A stretch of 64,000 bases of DNA, taken from the sequence record OQ689735.1; one strand, written 5' to 3'. The notes under the pieces are model-generated. The model was not told where the DNA came from, ran no database searches, and saw only the letters and a program-made list of their open reading frames with translations. This DNA comes from Escherichia phage 4E10. Shown one piece after another: positions 5,062-39,240 of this stretch; the first letter of the stretch is position 1; each line of letters starts with the position of its first letter. A program made the translations under genes and the position numbers.

Positions 5062-5602
5062 ATAAAAAATCCAAACTAGGAGAATCGTCTACAACACTTT
5101 TCTTTTCAGCCCCCGGTGTTCTATAGGTTGATTCTTCGTAATGCGTCATTTTATCGTAGATGTCTTGAATAAAAGTTTCATCTACTAACGCAACCATATC
5201 GTCGTCACGACTGTCATAGACATTGTGAACGAAGTAACTATATTTCTTTGCAACTTCCTTACGTTCTTTTTTAATACGTTGGACGAATGCATTAAAACAA
5301 GCTTGAGTTATATACGCATGTGGGTTTTTATATTTCGTTTCATCAAAATTATGAAGCCCCTTAATAGAAGCTTCTATACCATCTGCAATCATTTCTTGTT
5401 TCCAAGACTGGGTGTATCCTGAAAAGTTGAAACGTTTAGATAAGCCTTCTGCAATAAGCATAATGGCTAATCCGATAGTATCATTCTGACGAACTACTTT
5501 ATTTGGGTCTTTATTATTTGCTAATTCTGTTTTCCAATCAATAATAGCTTGTAAAAGCTCTTTATTGTTTACGTAATTATATTTAGGCTTAGTTTCTGAC
5601 AT
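5045..5602 (-). CDS. 55: Late-transcription sigma factor gp55
   Basis: 185 aa from ATG at 5602 (RBS GAGGTG): [30 protein letters not shown]...; matches recalled T4 gp55. Confidence 0.93.
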
Positions 5603-25408: not shown

Positions 25409-25596
25409 TATTCTTCTACATGTTGTTTACGACCTTTCCTATCAATAAAGGTATATTCAACGAATGTTCCAATATAGTCTTTATCTACATCATGTGGACT
25501 ATTAATTGGGCATTTAGTACGGCAAATGCGTTCCCATTGACGAATAATTACTGCTTTGTTTTTAGGATCAAACGGATGCGGGTAATGTACTTTCAT
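25384..25596 (-). CDS. Hypothetical protein
   Basis: ORF track 70 aa. Confidence 0.45.
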   Translation of the reverse strand: MKVHYPHPFDPKNKAVIIRQWERICRTKCPINSPHDVDKDYIGTFVEYTFIDRKGRKQHVEEYCLKVTWL

Positions 25597-26047
25597 AATC
25601 CACCACTATTAAATCAATATCAGGAGTAAACATACCGATTAATTTAGAAACCTTATCCCAATCGCCGCCAGCAATACCACAACCTATGCGTGGAATGTAA
25701 ATTACCGGTTTAAACAAAAGGATTTCTGCCTGTAGATTTAATTCTATCATGCAGTTTACTAAAGCACCATAATCAAGATTAGGACCCGGTTCGTATTGCG
25801 TATACAAATTATAGCATATACCAAATCCCGTAGGATTATGTTTAAAAACAATAGACATATCGCCTAATTTATCACGAGAACCGTACTCGGTAGTGGTTTT
25901 ATCTATTTCTAAAATTTTGGGATAGGCTCTTGCTAATTGACCTGCTACGCCAGAGCCCATTGTGTGGAAGCAATTGCACCCGTGCGCAATAATATTACCT
26001 TGAAGAAATAGGGCGACAATATCGCCCTTGATATATTTTACAATCAT
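25568..26047 (-). CDS. Macro-domain (ADP-ribose binding/processing) protein
   Basis: GDIV...IAHGCNCFHTMGSGVAGQLARAYP and IYIPRIGCGIAGGDW resemble the two conserved macro-domain loops; 159 aa. Confidence 0.6.
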   Translation of the reverse strand: MIVKYIKGDIVALFLQGNIIAHGCNCFHTMGSGVAGQLARAYPKILEIDKTTTEYGSRDKLGDMSIVFKHNPTGFGICYNLYTQYEPGPNLDYGALVNCMIELNLQAEILLFKPVIYIPRIGCGIAGGDWDKVSKLIGMFTPDIDLIVVDYESTLPASV

Positions 26048-26385: not shown

Positions 26386-26923
26386 TTACTATTTCCAAAA
26401 GTTTATTATTTTTAAGGTAATTAGCCTTTTCTAGGACTTCAGAAGCATATTTAGAACCTGCTTTAACATTCCATCCCGAATTATAAGAGGATATCGCCTT
26501 TCTTATATCGCCCTTATGTATATTTAACCAATAAGAAAGTTCAATGTACGCCCAGGAAGCTGAATTGGACCGTTTATTCAACATTCTTTTTATTTCAGTA
26601 TCGGTCATATTATAACCAAGTTCCTTAACTCTCGCTCGCATTGTCGGCAAATAATTTTGGAACATTCCATAGGCATGATGCTTTGGTTTAGATTTTAAAT
26701 TAACTCCGGCAGAGCTTTCTTGCCATAAAATAGCAGCCATTATATGACCTAATCCGCTCTTGTGGATATTTTTGTGTGTTTTATATTTTCCATCCTTAGA
26801 AAATTGTTCCCCGAATTGATACGCGTAACGCATGTTATCGAGTTGGACATTACTGAAAGTATGCTCGGAGCTATGTGCCATCATTGAAATGGCCAATAGA
26901 CCAGCGAGTAGTGCTTTTCTCAT
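26378..26923 (-). CDS. Secreted lytic transglycosylase-like protein (SLT domain)
   Basis: Signal peptide MRKALLAGLLAISMMAHS; SLT-like motifs ES (WQESSAG), GMFQ and YNSG. Confidence 0.6.
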   Translation of the reverse strand: MRKALLAGLLAISMMAHSSEHTFSNVQLDNMRYAYQFGEQFSKDGKYKTHKNIHKSGLGHIMAAILWQESSAGVNLKSKPKHHAYGMFQNYLPTMRARVKELGYNMTDTEIKRMLNKRSNSASWAYIELSYWLNIHKGDIRKAISSYNSGWNVKAGSKYASEVLEKANYLKNNKLLEIVND

Positions 26924-26930
26924 GCTTACC

Positions 26931-27392
26931 TCATTGAGTTTTAATTACTGCTTTAGAAGCCTTTCCTGGTAAACGACGACTGTTGATAATTGCCATTCTA
27001 CATTGAAGTGACGGGTCTTTGAACTTCGCATTAGGTTTACAAACTGTAAATCCAAGCCAAAGATTTCCATCTGTGATTTCTAAACGTCCAGGACGATATT
27101 CAACCCCATCAATAAAATTCTCGTCAATGTCAGGACGCGGAGGCATACTCAGGAATTCATTAACTTCTAAAACATGGTCTTTTATTTTGTGGAATAATTC
27201 AAAAACATATGTCTCATCAATCTCCCGTTGAATTGCACGATCAAGAAGATGCTGAGAATATTTTAGATGAAACGATGAGACCCCTGCTGCTTTTGATGCC
27301 TCACGAATCTCATTGTTAATTTGACGAAACTCCGACTCAAAGTGACGACGAAGCTTATTTCGACGGATAAAAACTTCTGTATTGATAGTCAT
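26931..27392 (-). CDS. regB: Endoribonuclease RegB
   Basis: 153 aa, MTINTEVFIRRNKLRRHFESEFRQINNEIREA...; matches recalled T4 RegB; early promoter directly upstream. Confidence 0.93.
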   Translation of the reverse strand: MTINTEVFIRRNKLRRHFESEFRQINNEIREASKAAGVSSFHLKYSQHLLDRAIQREIDETYVFELFHKIKDHVLEVNEFLSMPPRPDIDENFIDGVEYRPGRLEITDGNLWLGFTVCKPNAKFKDPSLQCRMAIINSRRLPGKASKAVIKTQ

Positions 27393-27419
27393 GTTATTCT
27401 CCTCTTAACTGATAGAAAA

Positions 27420-27449
27420 ATTATACCACAGTCAAGAGGAAAAGTAAAC
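27420..27449 (-). promoter_or_regulatory. T4-type early promoter upstream of regB
   Basis: Minus strand GTTTAC, 18 nt, TGG-TATAAT. Confidence 0.6.
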
Positions 27450-27451
27450 AG

Positions 27452-27730
27452 TTATTCTTTAAATCTAATCAATTTATTCATAGACTTTGAAACTTCTGCA
27501 CGGACCTCATGTAAGTTTTTAAGCTGTTCAAGACGCTGCTCATAATAAGCAATTTCATCTTCTTCGAGACAGTCCTGTGAATCTTCTTTAAGATAGCGTG
27601 CATAGTCCTGGAAAGCGTTACGGATTACTTCCTGGAAATCATCAAGACTTTGAATTTTCTTAGGAGCAGCAGATACACGACGAGGGGCAGTATAATACTC
27701 ATAACCAAACCCTGCGCTTAATTGAGCCAT
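27452..27730 (-). CDS. Hypothetical small protein
   Basis: ORF track 27452..27772; ATG at 27730 ([13 protein letters not shown]...); TAATG overlap with upstream gene. Confidence 0.5.
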
Positions 27731-27996
27731 TAGTATTTTTCCTCTGGTTGGAACACTGCACGACAAGCCCACATACTGGCTTCTTTGAGTTTCGTTTTAG
27801 CAATAGTTAACTGATCGAGGCTTTCAGCATAATTCTTTGCGAATTCATAGTCTTCACAATTATCTAGTGCTTCCCAGAATTCGTCATATAAAGCGTCAAA
27901 GATAAGTCCTAAACGAACTTCAGCATCTTTGATAGCATTCACTTTACCGATTTTCTCTTCAGTATGTGGCTTATAACCCTTAATGTCTTCAATCAT
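27730..27996 (-). CDS. Hypothetical small protein; candidate Acb2-like nucleotide sponge by position only
   Basis: ORF track 27730..28032; ATG at 27996 with GAGGAAG site ([17 protein letters not shown]...). The Acb2 call is inferred from position relative to regB, not from sequence I can recall. Confidence 0.5.
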
Positions 27997-28210
27997 ATTT
28001 GACTTCCTCACCAGTACATAAATCGTATTCAACTAAACGAATAGGTTCATGAATGCCATATCCCTGAACAGAAATTTCTGTCGTAGGATAAATTCCACTA
28101 ATATCACCCATATTCCACGCTTCATTAAATTGCTGTTCGCCTGAATTACTAAACCATTCTGCGAAAGCATTTAGCACATCTTTAGAACCTTCAATAATTA
28201 TCTTTGCCAT
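27989..28210 (-). CDS. Hypothetical protein
   Basis: ORF track 73 aa. Confidence 0.5.
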   Translation of the reverse strand: MAKIIIEGSKDVLNAFAEWFSNSGEQQFNEAWNMGDISGIYPTTEISVQGYGIHEPIRLVEYDLCTGEEVKYD

Positions 28211-28572
28211 TACAGACTCTCAGTAAAGGTACGAGCAATAACGTCGCGCTGCTGTTCCGGAGTCAGAGAGTTAAAGCGAACTGCATAACCGGATACACGG
28301 ATGGTCAGCTGCGGATATTTTTCCGGATGCTTAACTGCATCTTCCAGAGTTTCACGACGCAGAACGTTAACGTTCAGGTGTTGACCACCTTCAATTTTAA
28401 CTGTAGGTTGTGGCTCAATTTCAATTTCACGGGCATGCAAACCATAGAAAATTTCTGGGTCTACAAAAGAGTCCTCTTTAAAGGTTTTAGAGACAATAAT
28501 TCGTGCTTGAATACCATCTTCAAAATAAATAGTACCTTTATGTGTGCCTTCAAGAATTTGATATGCTTTCAT
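28210..28572 (-). CDS. Autonomous glycyl-radical cofactor (GrcA/YfiD-like; T4 Y06I homolog)
   Basis: C-terminal [59 protein letters not shown] is essentially the E. coli GrcA glycyl-radical domain. Confidence 0.85.
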
Positions 28573-28579
28573 ATAAACC

Positions 28580-28906
28580 TCAATTAGAAAATAAATTTAT
28601 CCAAGATTGTTCTTTAATTAAAAATGGCTCAGAATCATATGCCATTAAACTTTGCGTAATTAATCCTTTAAAAGGTCCATCAATAAATTCCATGGTAAAA
28701 TATGGAATTTTATTCATTAGCCGTGCATTAGGAGCAGTGCACAAAACTCTGCATCCTTTGAATACGCCTTTTTGTAATTTGTATTGCTTGGGATAAAATT
28801 CGCTCAAAATGTTATTATTTGCCAAAATTTCAAAATGATTTACCAATTTATTTTTAATAGTTTTTGGCGAAAAATAAAGATATTCGAAAAGCTGTGTATC
28901 TGTCAT
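28580..28906 (-). CDS. Hypothetical protein
   Basis: ORF track 28580..28960; start trimmed to [12 protein letters not shown]. Confidence 0.45.
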
Positions 28907-29493
28907 CATTGCATTCCGATTACGAAAAACTGCGGACGAGTAATACCACCAATGCAACATTTACTATTACAGCAGTAGTGTACAGTGTCAATATGGACAC
29001 TATAAATCTTATCCATATCAGGAGATTTGACAGGCTCATCAATTATATACAAAATTCGCGAAAGCGATAAACCTCTGAACTTGCTTCCTTTATTACCAAT
29101 AAAACTGCGCACAGAATCAGTAAATAAACGAAAACGTATATCATCATTAGAATAACGCGAAAATTCCTTTTTGATGTTATTTGCAGAAATTTTAGCGTAA
29201 GCTGAAGTATTAGAAAGAACAATAACTGTTCCGCCATCATACAGCCAATTAGCAGCAAAGTTAGTCACAGCAATTGATTTGCCGGATTGACGTCCACCAT
29301 CTATGCGAAGTGTGCAGTACTGTTTGAGTAAGTCTTCAAATGGCGGGGTATATTCGTTTTTACAAATTTCTTCTACTCTAGCATCAGAATGGTGTGTAAA
29401 AGCATTCATCAGGGATAGATAAGGACCAGTTAAAAATGTTCTCATTTTATTCTCTCTAAATTTGGGCCATTCCGTGGCGCATGAATTGTCCAT
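28906..29493 (-). CDS. Small P-loop NTPase
   Basis: Walker A GGRQSGKS and Walker B-like ILYIIDEP; start (29493 or 29445) uncertain. Confidence 0.5.
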   Translation of the reverse strand: MDNSCATEWPKFRENKMRTFLTGPYLSLMNAFTHHSDARVEEICKNEYTPPFEDLLKQYCTLRIDGGRQSGKSIAVTNFAANWLYDGGTVIVLSNTSAYAKISANNIKKEFSRYSNDDIRFRLFTDSVRSFIGNKGSKFRGLSLSRILYIIDEPVKSPDMDKIYSVHIDTVHYCCNSKCCIGGITRPQFFVIGMQ

Positions 29494-29586
29494 TTCTGTA
29501 TTTACCCATTACCGCACTCAGGCTCGACCTTATTACAGGTTGGCGGGAATCCCTCACAAAATCATGAGGTCCAGGTTGTTCCCATA

Positions 29587-30060
29587 TTATTTGAATGATT
29601 TGACGTACTGAATAGAACCTTTACTATTCACAAAGGCAATTTTACCATTTTTGTTATACATGGTAGCAGTACGCTGATAGCCATAAGTTTGTTTACCAGA
29701 TTGATAACCAACTAATGCAAAATTATCTTCGCCCATTTTATTCTGCTTAGCGCGGATACGTTCATGACCGTGCGCCATAAGAACCTTAGCGTCGCCAGTT
29801 GCAATGGATCTACGAGTTTTTTCATCTTCAACTGTATTAACAAAGTCGTCAAATGAATCAAATTTAGCATGAGATTTATTATACAGTTTTCCATCTACTG
29901 CATAATTATATCCCTGTACATCCATCTCAACTTCTGTACCATCATCCAATACAGCAGTGATTTTTTGACCTTTTTTAAATTTCAAAAGATCAGTAAAAGA
30001 TTCAGCAATAATTTGAGAATTAATAGCTGCTTCAGTAATAAATTCTTGATATGTTTTCAT
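29587..30060 (-). CDS. Internal (head-packaged) protein with capsid targeting sequence
   Basis: N-terminus MKTYQEFITEA is the T4 internal-protein capsid targeting sequence; 157 aa. Confidence 0.7.
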   Translation of the reverse strand: MKTYQEFITEAAINSQIIAESFTDLLKFKKGQKITAVLDDGTEVEMDVQGYNYAVDGKLYNKSHAKFDSFDDFVNTVEDEKTRRSIATGDAKVLMAHGHERIRAKQNKMGEDNFALVGYQSGKQTYGYQRTATMYNKNGKIAFVNSKGSIQYVKSFK

Positions 30061-30069
30061 ATGTTTCCT

Positions 30070-30486
30070 TTAAATGTAAATATTTTTACCGTAATACTTG
30101 TACCAATGTGGTTTCATTAAAATTTTTTCATCAAGTCGTTGTTGACTCAATTTAATAGCTGATTTGCATGGATTATAATCATTTTTCCATTCTGCTGGAA
30201 TATCGCTGATGTCAGGAACTTCAGTATCTTTTATACTAAACCCGCGTTTTAAGCATTCCGTTATAATGTCTGATTGACGCTTTCGCAAAAATTCTAACTT
30301 ATCGTAAAAGAAAGTAACATGACCAGAACCTAAAATAAACTCGGAAGATATTTTAAAATCTTTAACCCGCTTACCATTTGCCACATGTTTACGAACTATA
30401 CCAAAAACACGCGGCAATTCACGGTATTCTGCGATTAAATGTTGATCAGCAAGTTCAGATACTAAAGTCAAATTAATACGAGTCAT
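30070..30486 (-). CDS. denV: Endonuclease V (pyrimidine-dimer DNA glycosylase)
   Basis: 138 aa, [29 protein letters not shown]...WYKYYGK; matches recalled T4 DenV. Confidence 0.93.
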
Positions 30487-30510
30487 TTTATCCCTCCAAG
30501 TAACTGTGAA

Positions 30511-30541
30511 TATACTATCACAATTCTAGGAGAAAGTAAAC
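30511..30541 (-). promoter_or_regulatory. T4-type early promoter upstream of denV
   Basis: Minus strand GTTTAC with TAGTAT -10 candidate. Confidence 0.45.
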
Positions 30542-30545
30542 AACT

Positions 30546-31076
<531 letters not shown>

Positions 31077-38195: not shown

Positions 38196-38483
38196 TTACA
38201 AAAGATTTTTAGCAATAATCTTGAGATGTGCCGCAGAAATGTGTTTAGCTTTAAACAACGCAGTTTCTTCAGCAGGAGAGATAATGATTGTAGCACCATC
38301 CTTTTTAGCAGACCACCCATCACCTAGGTAAACAGTACCTTTGATTTCTTCGCCATCAACCAAGCTAATCATTGGTTTACCTTCTCGTCCTTTATTTGCT
38401 TTAATAACTTCAGAAGTAAGAGTAGCTTCAGTAATAGTAGAAACCGGGGTAGTTGTAGAAGTAAACTCTTTGAAAGTTTTCAT
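38196..38483 (-). CDS. ipI: Internal protein I (head-packaged; anti-restriction in T4)
   Basis: 95 aa, MKTFKEFTSTTTPVSTITEATLTSEVIKANKGREGKPMISLVDGEEIKG...; matches recalled T4 IPI. Confidence 0.9.
   Translation of the reverse strand: MKTFKEFTSTTTPVSTITEATLTSEVIKANKGREGKPMISLVDGEEIKGTVYLGDGWSAKKDGATIIISPAEETALFKAKHISAAHLKIIAKNLL

Positions 38484-38555: not shown

Positions 38556-39240
<685 letters not shown>

What the first reader, a model, noticed from the sequence alone, without database searches (positions are those of the whole stretch)
27452..27996. Two small early proteins at the position where T4 encodes the Acb2 nucleotide sponge; Acb1 homolog also present
In T4 the gene after regB (vs.4) encodes Acb2, a cyclic-oligonucleotide sponge, and 57B encodes Acb1. 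This window has a clear 57B/Acb1 homolog at 38556-39014 and two proteins of about 90 aa (27452-27730, 27730-27996) in the vs.3/vs.4 position. I cannot assign which, if either, is Acb2 from memory of the sequence.
Basis: inference. Interest (0 to 1): 0.45.

Follow-up and report, generated by a model that had tools for sequence, protein, structure and literature searches.

The report
Two adjacent T4 immune-signal sponge genes
The two small genes next to regB in this T4-like phage are near-identical copies of two already characterised T4 proteins, Acb2 (Vs.4), which soaks up the cyclic dinucleotide alarm signals of CBASS, and TadIV-1 (Vs.3), which soaks up the N7-cADPR signal of type IV Thoeris, so the finding is correct but ordinary.

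Summary
Two back-to-back ORFs lie at the stated coordinates, both on the minus strand, in a Tequatrovirus (T4-like) genome.

- **Acb2/Vs.4:** 27730-27996(-), 88 aa, is 87/88 identical to T4 Vs.4 (PDB 7UQ2). It matches Pfam Acb2_Tad1_hairpin and keeps every published cGAMP-contact and hexamer-interface residue.
- **TadIV-1/Vs.3:** 27452-27730(-), 92 aa, is not Acb2 and shows no detectable homology to it. It is 89/92 identical to T4 Vs.3, described in April 2026 as a dimeric sponge for N7-cADPR that blocks type IV Thoeris. It is the active long form, with R17, R18 and K24 intact.
- **Acb1/57B:** 38556-39014(-) is 151/152 identical to T4 Acb1, with its HxT/HxT catalytic tetrad intact.

The phage therefore carries T4's full known anti-signalling set. 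The 'endoribonuclease' label on Vs.3 homologues, including PDB 9WIW, looks like a propagated misannotation. Everything here is already known; function is inferred from near-identity and was not assayed. The only loose end is Vs.5, a 73-aa protein of unknown function whose gene overlaps the start of acb2; I could not assign it.

The parts
27730..27996 (-). acb2 (vs.4): 88-aa cyclic-dinucleotide sponge, anti-CBASS
   Evidence: phmmer against PDB: 7UQ2 'Vs.4', E 8.1e-56, 87/88 identical; weaker match to PaMx33 Acb2 'p26' (8IXZ, 8H2J). Pfam PF24729 Acb2_Tad1_hairpin, E 9.2e-20. PHROG 717, E 3.8e-32, the PHROG that Jenson et al. name as the Vs.4 family. The only difference from T4 is C50Y, in the indel-rich hairpin tip. 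Y8, H11, T12, K23, L29, F33, A66, A73, S74, A77, R79 and F82 are all kept.
27452..27730 (-). tadIV-1 (vs.3): 92-aa N7-cADPR sponge, anti-type IV Thoeris
   Evidence: 89/92 identical to T4 Vs.3 (differences A21V, I36V, E64T, written window residue then T4 residue) and 76% identical to UPEC07 TadIV-1. phmmer against PDB: 9WIW, E 2e-38; 9WIW is apo TadIV-1 of phage UPEC07 (PMC13243611). PHROG 2037, E 3e-40. Long form with the N-terminal loop; R17, R18 and K24 are present.
38556..39014 (-). acb1 (57B): 152-aa cyclic-oligonucleotide phosphodiesterase, anti-CBASS
   Evidence: Pfam PF23474 Acb1, E 1.1e-59. PDB 7T26 Acb1, E 1.4e-61. 151/152 identical to T4 57B. The HxT/HxT tetrad H44, T46, H113, T115 is present.
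27989..28210 (-). vs.5: 73-aa protein of unknown function; its stop overlaps the acb2 start (context; possible third member of the cassette)
   Evidence: ORF. PHROG 1986, unknown function, E 3.6e-43. No Pfam or NCBIfam match. AF2 model mean pLDDT 64.5 with no significant fold match.
26931..27392 (-). regB endoribonuclease (positional landmark downstream of tadIV-1)
   Evidence: Pfam REGB_T4, E 1.7e-68. PHROG 1323 endoribonuclease.
27420..27448 (-). Promoter-like site between tadIV-1 and regB (TTTACT, 17 nt, TATAAT, with TG). It would drive regB, not the sponge genes.
   Evidence: Consensus scan, 10/12 matches. Sequence identical in T4. Consensus match only; the number of such sites in the region is no higher than in shuffled sequence.

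Best explanation
The window comes from a T4-like (Tequatrovirus) phage. The two ORFs are its orthologues of T4 vs.4 and vs.3, two unrelated small helical proteins that each disarm a host abortive-infection system by binding its nucleotide second messenger instead of degrading it.

**Acb2/Vs.4, 27730-27996(-).** It should assemble into a hexamer with three pockets, each formed between two subunits. Y8 and F82 stack on the bases of 3',3'-cGAMP and related cyclic dinucleotides, and H11, K23 and R79 make the polar contacts. Holding the signal (Kd about 30-80 nM for the T4 protein) keeps CBASS effectors such as CapV below their activation threshold. Like T4 Acb2, it probably does not bind cyclic trinucleotides. 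Those fall to Acb1/57B at 38556-39014(-), which hydrolyses cGAMP, cUA and cAAA. As in T4, carrying Acb2 should also make the phage visible to the Panoptes decoy-nucleotide system.

**TadIV-1/Vs.3, 27452-27730(-).** It should form a homodimer of two-helix hairpins. Its flexible N-terminal loop (R17, R18) together with K24 captures N7-cADPR made by the type IV Thoeris TIR protein (Kd about 216 nM for the T4 protein). That prevents activation of the caspase-like effector.

**What is shown and what is inferred.** Shown here: identity, gene order, retention of the functional residues, purifying selection, and overlapping stop/start codons. Inferred from the experiments on the T4 proteins: oligomeric states, ligand binding and anti-defence phenotypes. 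Early expression from a shared upstream promoter, and translational coupling of vs.5-vs.4-vs.3, are inferred from the overlaps and from T4 literature, not demonstrated.
For: Acb2:
- 87/88 identity to T4 Vs.4 / PDB 7UQ2; Pfam PF24729; PHROG 717.
- Jenson et al. (PMC10097602) report the hexamer with 3 cGAMP, Kd about 30 nM, contacts Y8/F82/H11/K23/R79 and interface residues L29/A66/A73/A77. All are unchanged here.
- T4-Acb2 binds cyclic dinucleotides but not cA3 or cAAG. The residues blamed for this (Y37, A57, L60, D61, T64) are unchanged (PMC10312549).
- Panoptes is activated by T4 Acb2 (PMC12657218).

TadIV-1:
- 89/92 identity to T4 Vs.3; match to 9WIW at E 2e-38.
- Chen et al. (PMC13243611) report that T4 Vs.3 is necessary and sufficient against type IV Thoeris, sequesters and releases intact N7-cADPR, has KD about 216 nM, and that the crystallised homologue (UPEC07 TadIV-1) is a dimer. 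Only long (~90 aa) forms are active, and R17/R18/K24 are important in the T4 protein.
- The window protein is 92 aa and has all three residues.

Acb1:
- 151/152 identity to T4 57B with the tetrad intact.

Selection and synteny:
- pN/pS is 0.02 for vs.4 and 0.11 for vs.3.
- The acb2-tadIV-1 pair, with overlapping stop/start, recurs in phage NHEP11 and in Dhakavirus AnYang.
- tblastn finds TadIV-1 homologues in 695 phage records and Acb2 homologues in 1237.
Against: - No binding or infection experiment exists for this exact allele. Acb2 carries C50Y, and TadIV-1 differs from the T4 protein at positions 21, 36 and 64 (A, I and E here; V, V and T in T4).
- Position 21 lies in the N-terminal stretch that corresponds, in the alignment, to the part of the UPEC07 loop implicated in ligand binding, so a quantitative effect on affinity cannot be excluded.
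- The N7-cADPR binding mode of TadIV-1 is itself unresolved: there is no ligand density, only Boltz-2 models.
- I found no convincing promoter upstream of vs.8 or vs.5 in this window, and the region upstream of vs.8 differs from T4, so the transcription unit and its timing are not established here.
- Chen et al. note that phage T2 encodes a functional TadIV-1 yet is still sensitive to type IV Thoeris. Presence of the gene therefore does not guarantee the phenotype.
Confidence: 0.93

Rival explanations
1. The 92-aa protein at 27452-27730(-) is an endoribonuclease related to RegB, as many GenBank records and the PDB entry 9WIW label its homologues.
For: PDB 9WIW carries the molecule name 'Endoribonuclease'. 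Other records show 'endoribonuclease (x2)'.
Against: - Pfam REGB_T4 hits the true RegB at E 1.7e-68 but does not hit this protein at all.
- In the teqhal record the same RegB-derived label is also attached to the orthologues of vs.1, vs.7 and vs.8, which is the pattern of a propagated annotation error.
- The paper that deposited 9WIW describes it as apo TadIV-1, a non-enzymatic sponge that releases intact N7-cADPR on denaturation. The word 'endoribonuclease' does not occur in its text.
Confidence: 0.02
2. The two genes are tandem paralogues, so both are Acb2-type cyclic-nucleotide sponges, with Vs.3 a diverged duplicate of Vs.4.
For: The two proteins are similar in size (92 and 88 aa), adjacent, and have overlapping stop/start codons. 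Both are built on a two-helix hairpin, and both are nucleotide sponges.
Against: - BLASTP finds no alignment at E <= 100, and profile-profile hhalign gives a probability of 3%.
- Pfam Acb2_Tad1_hairpin hits Vs.4 but not Vs.3.
- Chen et al. report a dimer rather than a hexamer, a pocket made by a flexible N-terminal loop, and no suppression of the Escherichia albertii CBASS. They saw only a slight effect on the Yersinia CBASS and no detectable in vitro binding of its signal.
Confidence: 0.03
3. The alleles in this phage are functionally altered. C50Y in Acb2, or the A21/I36/E64 residues of TadIV-1, change ligand range or abolish activity, so the T4 functions cannot simply be transferred.
For: The substitutions are real. 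Residue 21 lies in the N-terminal stretch that corresponds, in the alignment, to the part of the UPEC07 loop shown to matter for binding. Published sponge families show functional diversity among homologues.
Against: - Residue 50 of Acb2 is in a segment that varies in sequence and length among homologues, and it is not among the residues reported as contacts or interfaces.
- At TadIV-1 positions 36 and 64, the window carries the same residues (I, E) as the active UPEC07 homologue.
- All 'long' homologues tested by Chen et al., including ones far more divergent than this, were active.
- Strong purifying selection acts on both genes.
Confidence: 0.05

Closest known systems
T4 Vs.4 / Acb2 (PDB 7UQ2; Jenson et al. 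2023, PMC10097602; family named Acb2 by Huiting et al. 2023)
   Same: 87/88 identical. Same length, and the same genomic position between vs.5 and vs.3. All cGAMP-contact residues (Y8, H11, K23, R79, F82) and hexamer-interface residues (L29, F33, A66, A73, A77) are identical, as are the residues that exclude cyclic trinucleotides.
   Different: A single substitution, C50Y, in the variable hairpin tip. No functional difference is expected.
T4 Vs.3 / TadIV-1 (Chen et al., Nat Commun 2026, PMC13243611; homologue structure PDB 9WIW from phage UPEC07)
   Same: 89/92 identical to the T4 protein. Long form (92 aa) with the N-terminal loop; R17, R18 and K24 conserved. Same position immediately upstream of regB.
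   Different: Three substitutions relative to T4 (A21 for V, I36 for V, E64 for T). Relative to UPEC07 TadIV-1 (76% identity) it lacks a 9-residue insertion in the loop, exactly as T4 does.
T4 gp57B / Acb1 (Hobbs et al. 2022, PMC9117128; PDB 7T26/7T27)
   Same: 151/152 identical to T4 57B. HxT/HxT tetrad H44, T46, H113, T115 intact. Same position between 57A and ipI.
   Different: One substitution, F145 for L, near the C-terminus.
PaMx33 Acb2 (p26; PDB 8H2J, 8IXZ and others)
   Same: Same family and fold. Weak but full-length sequence match, E about 0.03.
   Different: Only about 24% identical to T4 Acb2. PaMx33 Acb2 has a second pocket that binds cyclic trinucleotides, which T4-type Acb2, and by inference this protein, lacks.

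Membership tests
Acb2 (Vs.4) cyclic-dinucleotide sponge | Sequence membership: significant match to the solved Vs.4/Acb2 proteins and to Pfam PF24729 / PHROG 717 | tested here: met
   7UQ2 E 8.1e-56, 87/88 identical. PF24729 E 9.2e-20, 71 bits against a cutoff of 27. PHROG 717 E 3.8e-32.
Acb2 (Vs.4) cyclic-dinucleotide sponge | Cyclic-dinucleotide pocket residues Y8, F82 (base stacking) and H11, K23, R79 (polar contacts), plus S74 and T12 | tested here: met
   All identical to T4 Vs.4. The residue list comes from PMC10097602.
Acb2 (Vs.4) cyclic-dinucleotide sponge | Hexamer assembly (interface residues L29, F33, A66, A73, A77) | tested here: inconclusive
   All interface residues are identical, so a hexamer is expected. 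The oligomeric state itself was not modelled or measured here.
Acb2 (Vs.4) cyclic-dinucleotide sponge | Tight, non-degradative binding of 3',3'-cGAMP and inhibition of CBASS effectors | not testable with these tools
   Needs ITC and a CapV assay. Shown only for the T4 protein.
TadIV-1 (Vs.3) N7-cADPR sponge | Sequence membership: homology to T4 Vs.3 and to UPEC07 TadIV-1 | tested here: met
   97% identical to T4 Vs.3 and 76% to the 9WIW sequence. 9WIW E 2e-38. PHROG 2037 E 3e-40.
TadIV-1 (Vs.3) N7-cADPR sponge | Long form (>80 aa) carrying the N-terminal flexible loop; short ~70-aa forms are inactive | tested here: met
   92 aa with the full N-terminal 23 residues, aligned to T4. The 69-aa AnYang homologue lacks this stretch. 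The criterion comes from PMC13243611.
TadIV-1 (Vs.3) N7-cADPR sponge | Ligand-binding residues R17, R18, K24 (T4 numbering) | tested here: met
   All three are present at the same positions. Their importance was shown by mutation in T4 TadIV-1.
TadIV-1 (Vs.3) N7-cADPR sponge | Homodimer that sequesters and releases intact N7-cADPR and blocks type IV Thoeris | not testable with these tools
   Needs SEC-MALS, a PsCaspase reporter assay and plaque assays. Sequestration and Thoeris inhibition were shown for the T4 protein; the dimer was shown for the UPEC07 homologue.
Acb1 (57B) cyclic-oligonucleotide phosphodiesterase | Pfam Acb1 match and the HxT/HxT catalytic tetrad (H44, T46, H113, T115) | tested here: met
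   PF23474 E 1.1e-59. 151/152 identical to T4 57B. Tetrad visible in the alignments; definition from PMC9117128.
RegB-type endoribonuclease (database label attached to Vs.3 homologues) | Match to the RegB family model (Pfam PF10715 REGB_T4) | tested here: not met
   No REGB_T4 hit for the 92-aa protein at E <= 0.1, while the neighbouring true RegB scores E 1.7e-68. The label also sits on unrelated neighbouring genes.

The most novel reading that the evidence does not exclude
vs.5-vs.4-vs.3 may be a three-gene anti-signalling cassette, linked by overlapping stop/start codons, in which the uncharacterised 73-aa Vs.5 at 27989-28210(-) is a third anti-defence protein, either another small sponge or a direct inhibitor.

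- Vs.5 has no family assignment and no confident fold, and it travels with acb2 and tadIV-1 across Tequatrovirus and related genera.
- It is truncated by a 1-nt indel in the T4 reference sequence, so anyone working from that annotation (58 aa) would not have seen the full-length protein.
- A weaker alternative is that the window-specific substitutions shift ligand range.
Probability: 0.1. Interest if true: 0.45.

Novelty: already known. Interest (0 to 1): 0.12.

Why it matters
For this window the result is an annotation gain rather than a discovery. The two 'hypothetical proteins' beside regB can be named acb2 and tadIV-1, and 57B can be named acb1.

Practical consequences:
- The phage should evade cGAMP-type CBASS and type IV Thoeris, and should be sensed by Panoptes. 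That bears on host-range prediction and on the choice of phages for therapy.
- The 'endoribonuclease' label carried by Vs.3 homologues in GenBank and in PDB 9WIW should not be propagated further.
- Two unrelated second-messenger sponges sit in adjacent, overlapping genes, and this pairing is conserved across several Straboviridae genera. That makes the small neighbouring genes of unknown function (vs.5, vs.7, vs.8) reasonable candidates for anti-defence screens.

Tried and rejected
- **Vs.3 as a RegB-like endoribonuclease.** Rejected: no REGB_T4 match, and the label is a propagated annotation.
- **Vs.3 and Vs.4 as tandem paralogues.** Rejected at the sequence level: BLASTP finds nothing, and hhalign gives a probability of 3%.
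- **Weak Pfam hit of Vs.3 to Tex_N.** E 0.0015, 18.7 bits against a cutoff of 32. Dismissed as below threshold. The parvalbumin/oncomodulin hits in the PDB (E 0.07-0.7) were dismissed as helical, acidic composition matches.
- **Vs.5 as a third sponge.** Nothing usable came out:
  - The homology search returned only 5 close relatives.
  - No Pfam or NCBIfam family matched, and PHROG 1986 has no known function.
  - The AF2 model has mean pLDDT 64.5.
  - Foldseek against BFVD and the PDB gave no hit at E <= 0.001. The best BFVD hits are uncharacterised phage proteins that look like sequence relatives.
- **Non-coding features.** The Rfam scan of 26500-30600 found none.
- **Promoter for the vs.8-vs.3 block.** No convincing sigma-70 consensus lies upstream of vs.8 in this window, and the count of promoter-like sites equals that of shuffled sequence. 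The transcription unit is left unresolved.
- **Literature on 'vs.3'.** Searches combined with regB, and for vs.5/vs.6, found nothing. The decisive paper was reached through the PDB code 9WIW.

Full report
**Where the window comes from and what is at the coordinates**

The 1.4-kb stretch around the finding matches 696 phage records. Nearly all are Tequatrovirus (T4-like) phages of Escherichia and Shigella. The best match is Escherichia phage ECO95 1-6-1 at 99.9%, and T4 itself is about 98% identical over 27380-28220.

All genes in this region lie on the minus strand. ORF listing and direct reading of the sequence give, in the direction of transcription:

| Gene | Coordinates | Length |
|---|---|---|
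| vs.6 (GrcA-like) | 28210-28572 | 120 aa |
| vs.5 | 27989-28210 | 73 aa |
| first ORF of the finding | 27730-27996 | 88 aa |
| second ORF of the finding | 27452-27730 | 92 aa |
| promoter-like site | 27448-27420 | n/a |
| regB | 26931-27392 | 153 aa |

regB is confirmed by Pfam REGB_T4 at E 1.7e-68. The order is the same as T4's vs.6-vs.5-vs.4-vs.3-regB.

**Are these real genes?**

Yes.
- T4, T4T, teqhal and T4_ev151 all annotate the same two CDSs.
- Against T4, vs.4 has 11 nucleotide differences, 10 of them synonymous (pN/pS 0.02). vs.3 has 13 differences, scored as 9 synonymous and 4 non-synonymous steps, giving 3 amino-acid changes (pN/pS 0.11).
- Each ATG is preceded by a GAGGAA motif.
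- The genes are joined by overlapping stop/start codons: ATGATTGA for vs.5/vs.4 and TAATG for vs.4/vs.3. This suggests translational coupling, which is an inference.

**27730-27996(-) is Acb2 (Vs.4)**

phmmer against all PDB sequences gives 7UQ2 'Vs.4' at E 8.1e-56, with 87 of 88 residues identical. The PaMx33 Acb2 entries (8H2J, 8IXZ and related) appear as weak full-length matches. Pfam PF24729 'Acb2/Tad1 hairpin domain' scores 71 bits against a cutoff of 27. PHROG 717, which Jenson et al. name as the Vs.4 family, scores E 3.8e-32.

Jenson et al. (PMC10097602) showed that T4 Vs.4:
- is a hexamer holding three cGAMP molecules, with Kd about 30 nM;
- contacts the ligand through Y8/F82 stacking and through H11, K23 and R79;
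- depends on interface residues L29, A66, A73 and A77 for both hexamer formation and binding.

Every one of these residues, plus T12, F33 and S74, is unchanged in the window protein. The single difference, C50Y, falls in the hairpin-tip segment, which varies in sequence and length among homologues.

Cao et al. (PMC10312549) showed that T4-Acb2 binds cyclic dinucleotides but not cA3 or cAAG. They attributed this to Y37, A57, L60, D61 and T64, and those residues are also unchanged here. T4 Acb2 is additionally the trigger of the Panoptes decoy-nucleotide defence (PMC12657218), so the same liability is expected for this phage.

**27452-27730(-) is TadIV-1 (Vs.3), not Acb2**

The protein has no Pfam family. 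The only hit, Tex_N, is below threshold. It belongs to PHROG 2037, which has no known function. Against the PDB it matches 9WIW at E 2e-38.

Searching the literature for that code led to Chen et al., Nat Commun 2026 (PMC13243611). Their findings:
- T4 Vs.3 was identified by a phage-mating screen as the sole T4 inhibitor of type IV Thoeris and renamed TadIV-1.
- It sequesters the TIR-made signal N7-cADPR with KD about 216 nM and releases it intact on denaturation.
- It did not suppress type II Thoeris, Kongming or the Escherichia albertii CBASS.
- It gave only a slight effect on type I Thoeris and on the Yersinia CBASS, and no binding of their signals was detected in vitro.
- The UPEC07 homologue crystallises as a dimer of two-helix hairpins whose first 32 residues are disordered.
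- Truncation and mutation show that this N-terminal loop is needed. Only the 'long' (~90 aa) homologues are active, and R17, R18 and K24 matter in the T4 protein.

The window protein is 89/92 identical to T4 Vs.3, with A21, I36 and E64 where T4 has V, V and T. It is 92 aa and retains R17, R18 and K24. At positions 36 and 64 it carries the residues of the active UPEC07 protein.

It shows no detectable homology to the neighbouring Acb2: BLASTP finds nothing, and hhalign gives a probability of 3%. The two sponges are therefore not recognisable duplicates.

**The 'endoribonuclease' label**

9WIW and several GenBank records call Vs.3 homologues 'endoribonuclease'. In phage teqhal the same RegB-derived note is attached to the orthologues of vs.1, vs.3, vs.7 and vs.8. 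Pfam REGB_T4 does not match Vs.3. This is a propagated misannotation.

**Acb1**

38556-39014(-) matches Pfam Acb1 at E 1.1e-59 and PDB 7T26 at E 1.4e-61. It is 151/152 identical to T4 57B, which Hobbs et al. identified as Acb1. [quoted passage not shown] All four residues are present. It sits between 57A and ipI, as in T4.

**Distribution and synteny**

tblastn finds TadIV-1 homologues in 695 phage records. These come from phages of Enterobacteriaceae such as Escherichia, Shigella, Yersinia and Salmonella, and the weakest hits cover only residues 25-92, which is the short form. Acb2 homologues occur in 1237 records from a wider host range.

The acb2-tadIV-1 pair with overlapping stop/start recurs in two more distant phages:
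- Phage NHEP11: Acb2 of 81 aa and TadIV-1 of 99 aa.
- Dhakavirus AnYang: Acb2 of 92 aa, and a short 69-aa Vs.3 lacking the loop.

The Acb2 assignments in both were confirmed by Pfam.

**What remains open**

Function is transferred from T4 by near-identity; nothing was assayed. I could not identify a promoter for the vs.8-to-vs.3 block in this window. The upstream region also differs from T4: an Ip4-like gene lies between denV and vs.8, and ipII/ipIII are absent.

Vs.5, the 73-aa protein whose gene overlaps the acb2 start, stays unassigned:
- The homology search returned only 5 close homologues.
- No family matched.
- The AF2 model is of low confidence, mean pLDDT 64.5.
- There were no significant fold matches.

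**Verdict**

It resolves into three proteins that are already characterised experimentally in T4 and are 97-99% identical here. Novelty: already known. Interest: low. The residual value lies in correct naming (acb2, tadIV-1, acb1), in flagging the endoribonuclease misannotation, and in pointing to Vs.5 as an untested neighbour.

Noticed in passing
window 27989-28210 (-); L003 (T4 NC_000866.4) 5382-5558: The T4 reference record annotates vs.5 as 58 aa, because it has a 1-nt deletion relative to the window (alignment A3, around column 63). That shifts the frame after residue 17. The window, teqhal, T4_ev151 and the resequenced T4T (HM137666) all encode the same 73-aa Vs.5, whose end overlaps the acb2 start. 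The reference vs.5 is probably a sequencing error or a strain-specific frameshift.
   Followed up: yes
window 27989-28210 (-): Vs.5 (73 aa) overlaps acb2 by stop/start and is conserved, but has no Pfam or NCBIfam family. It falls in PHROG 1986 (unknown function). The AF2 model has mean pLDDT 64.5, and Foldseek found no significant match. It is an untested candidate for another anti-defence protein.
   Followed up: partly
window 27452-27730 (-); PDB 9WIW; L001 (phage teqhal): Vs.3/TadIV-1 homologues are widely labelled 'endoribonuclease', including the PDB entry 9WIW. In teqhal the same RegB-derived label also sits on the vs.1, vs.7 and vs.8 orthologues. None of this is supported by a REGB_T4 match, so it is a propagated annotation error.
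   Followed up: yes
window 29587-30060 (-) and 30070-31040 (-): Gene content between e (lysozyme, 30546-31040) and vs.8 differs from T4. ipII and ipIII are absent between e and denV (30070-30486). A 157-aa ORF, whose orthologue is annotated in teqhal as a putative Ip4 internal head protein, lies between denV and vs.8. vs.8 is 195 aa here against 219 aa in T4.
   Followed up: no
window 28210-28572 (-): vs.6 encodes a GrcA-like autonomous glycyl-radical cofactor (Pfam Gly_radical E 2.8e-18). It lies immediately upstream of the vs.5-acb2-tadIV-1 block, and its stop overlaps the vs.5 start.
   Followed up: no
window 38196-38483 (-): The gene just downstream of acb1 is ipI, 94/95 identical to T4. 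From my own knowledge, not tested here, it encodes the internal protein IPI*, which inhibits the GmrSD restriction enzyme. A second pair of anti-defence genes would therefore be adjacent in this window.
   Followed up: partly
window 25568-26047 (-): The tk.4 orthologue (159 aa) is annotated in relatives as a macro-domain / ADP-ribose-binding ('A1pp phosphatase') protein. It lies only about 1.4 kb downstream of the N7-cADPR sponge gene. Any link to ADP-ribose-derived signalling was not examined.
   Followed up: no
window 27393-27451 (-): The 59-nt vs.3-regB spacer is identical to T4. It contains a promoter-like TTTACT-17-TATAAT site, followed by the regB Shine-Dalgarno sequence AAGAGGAGAA. That sequence includes the GGAG motif which RegB itself cleaves, according to the T4 record's note on regB.
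   Followed up: partly
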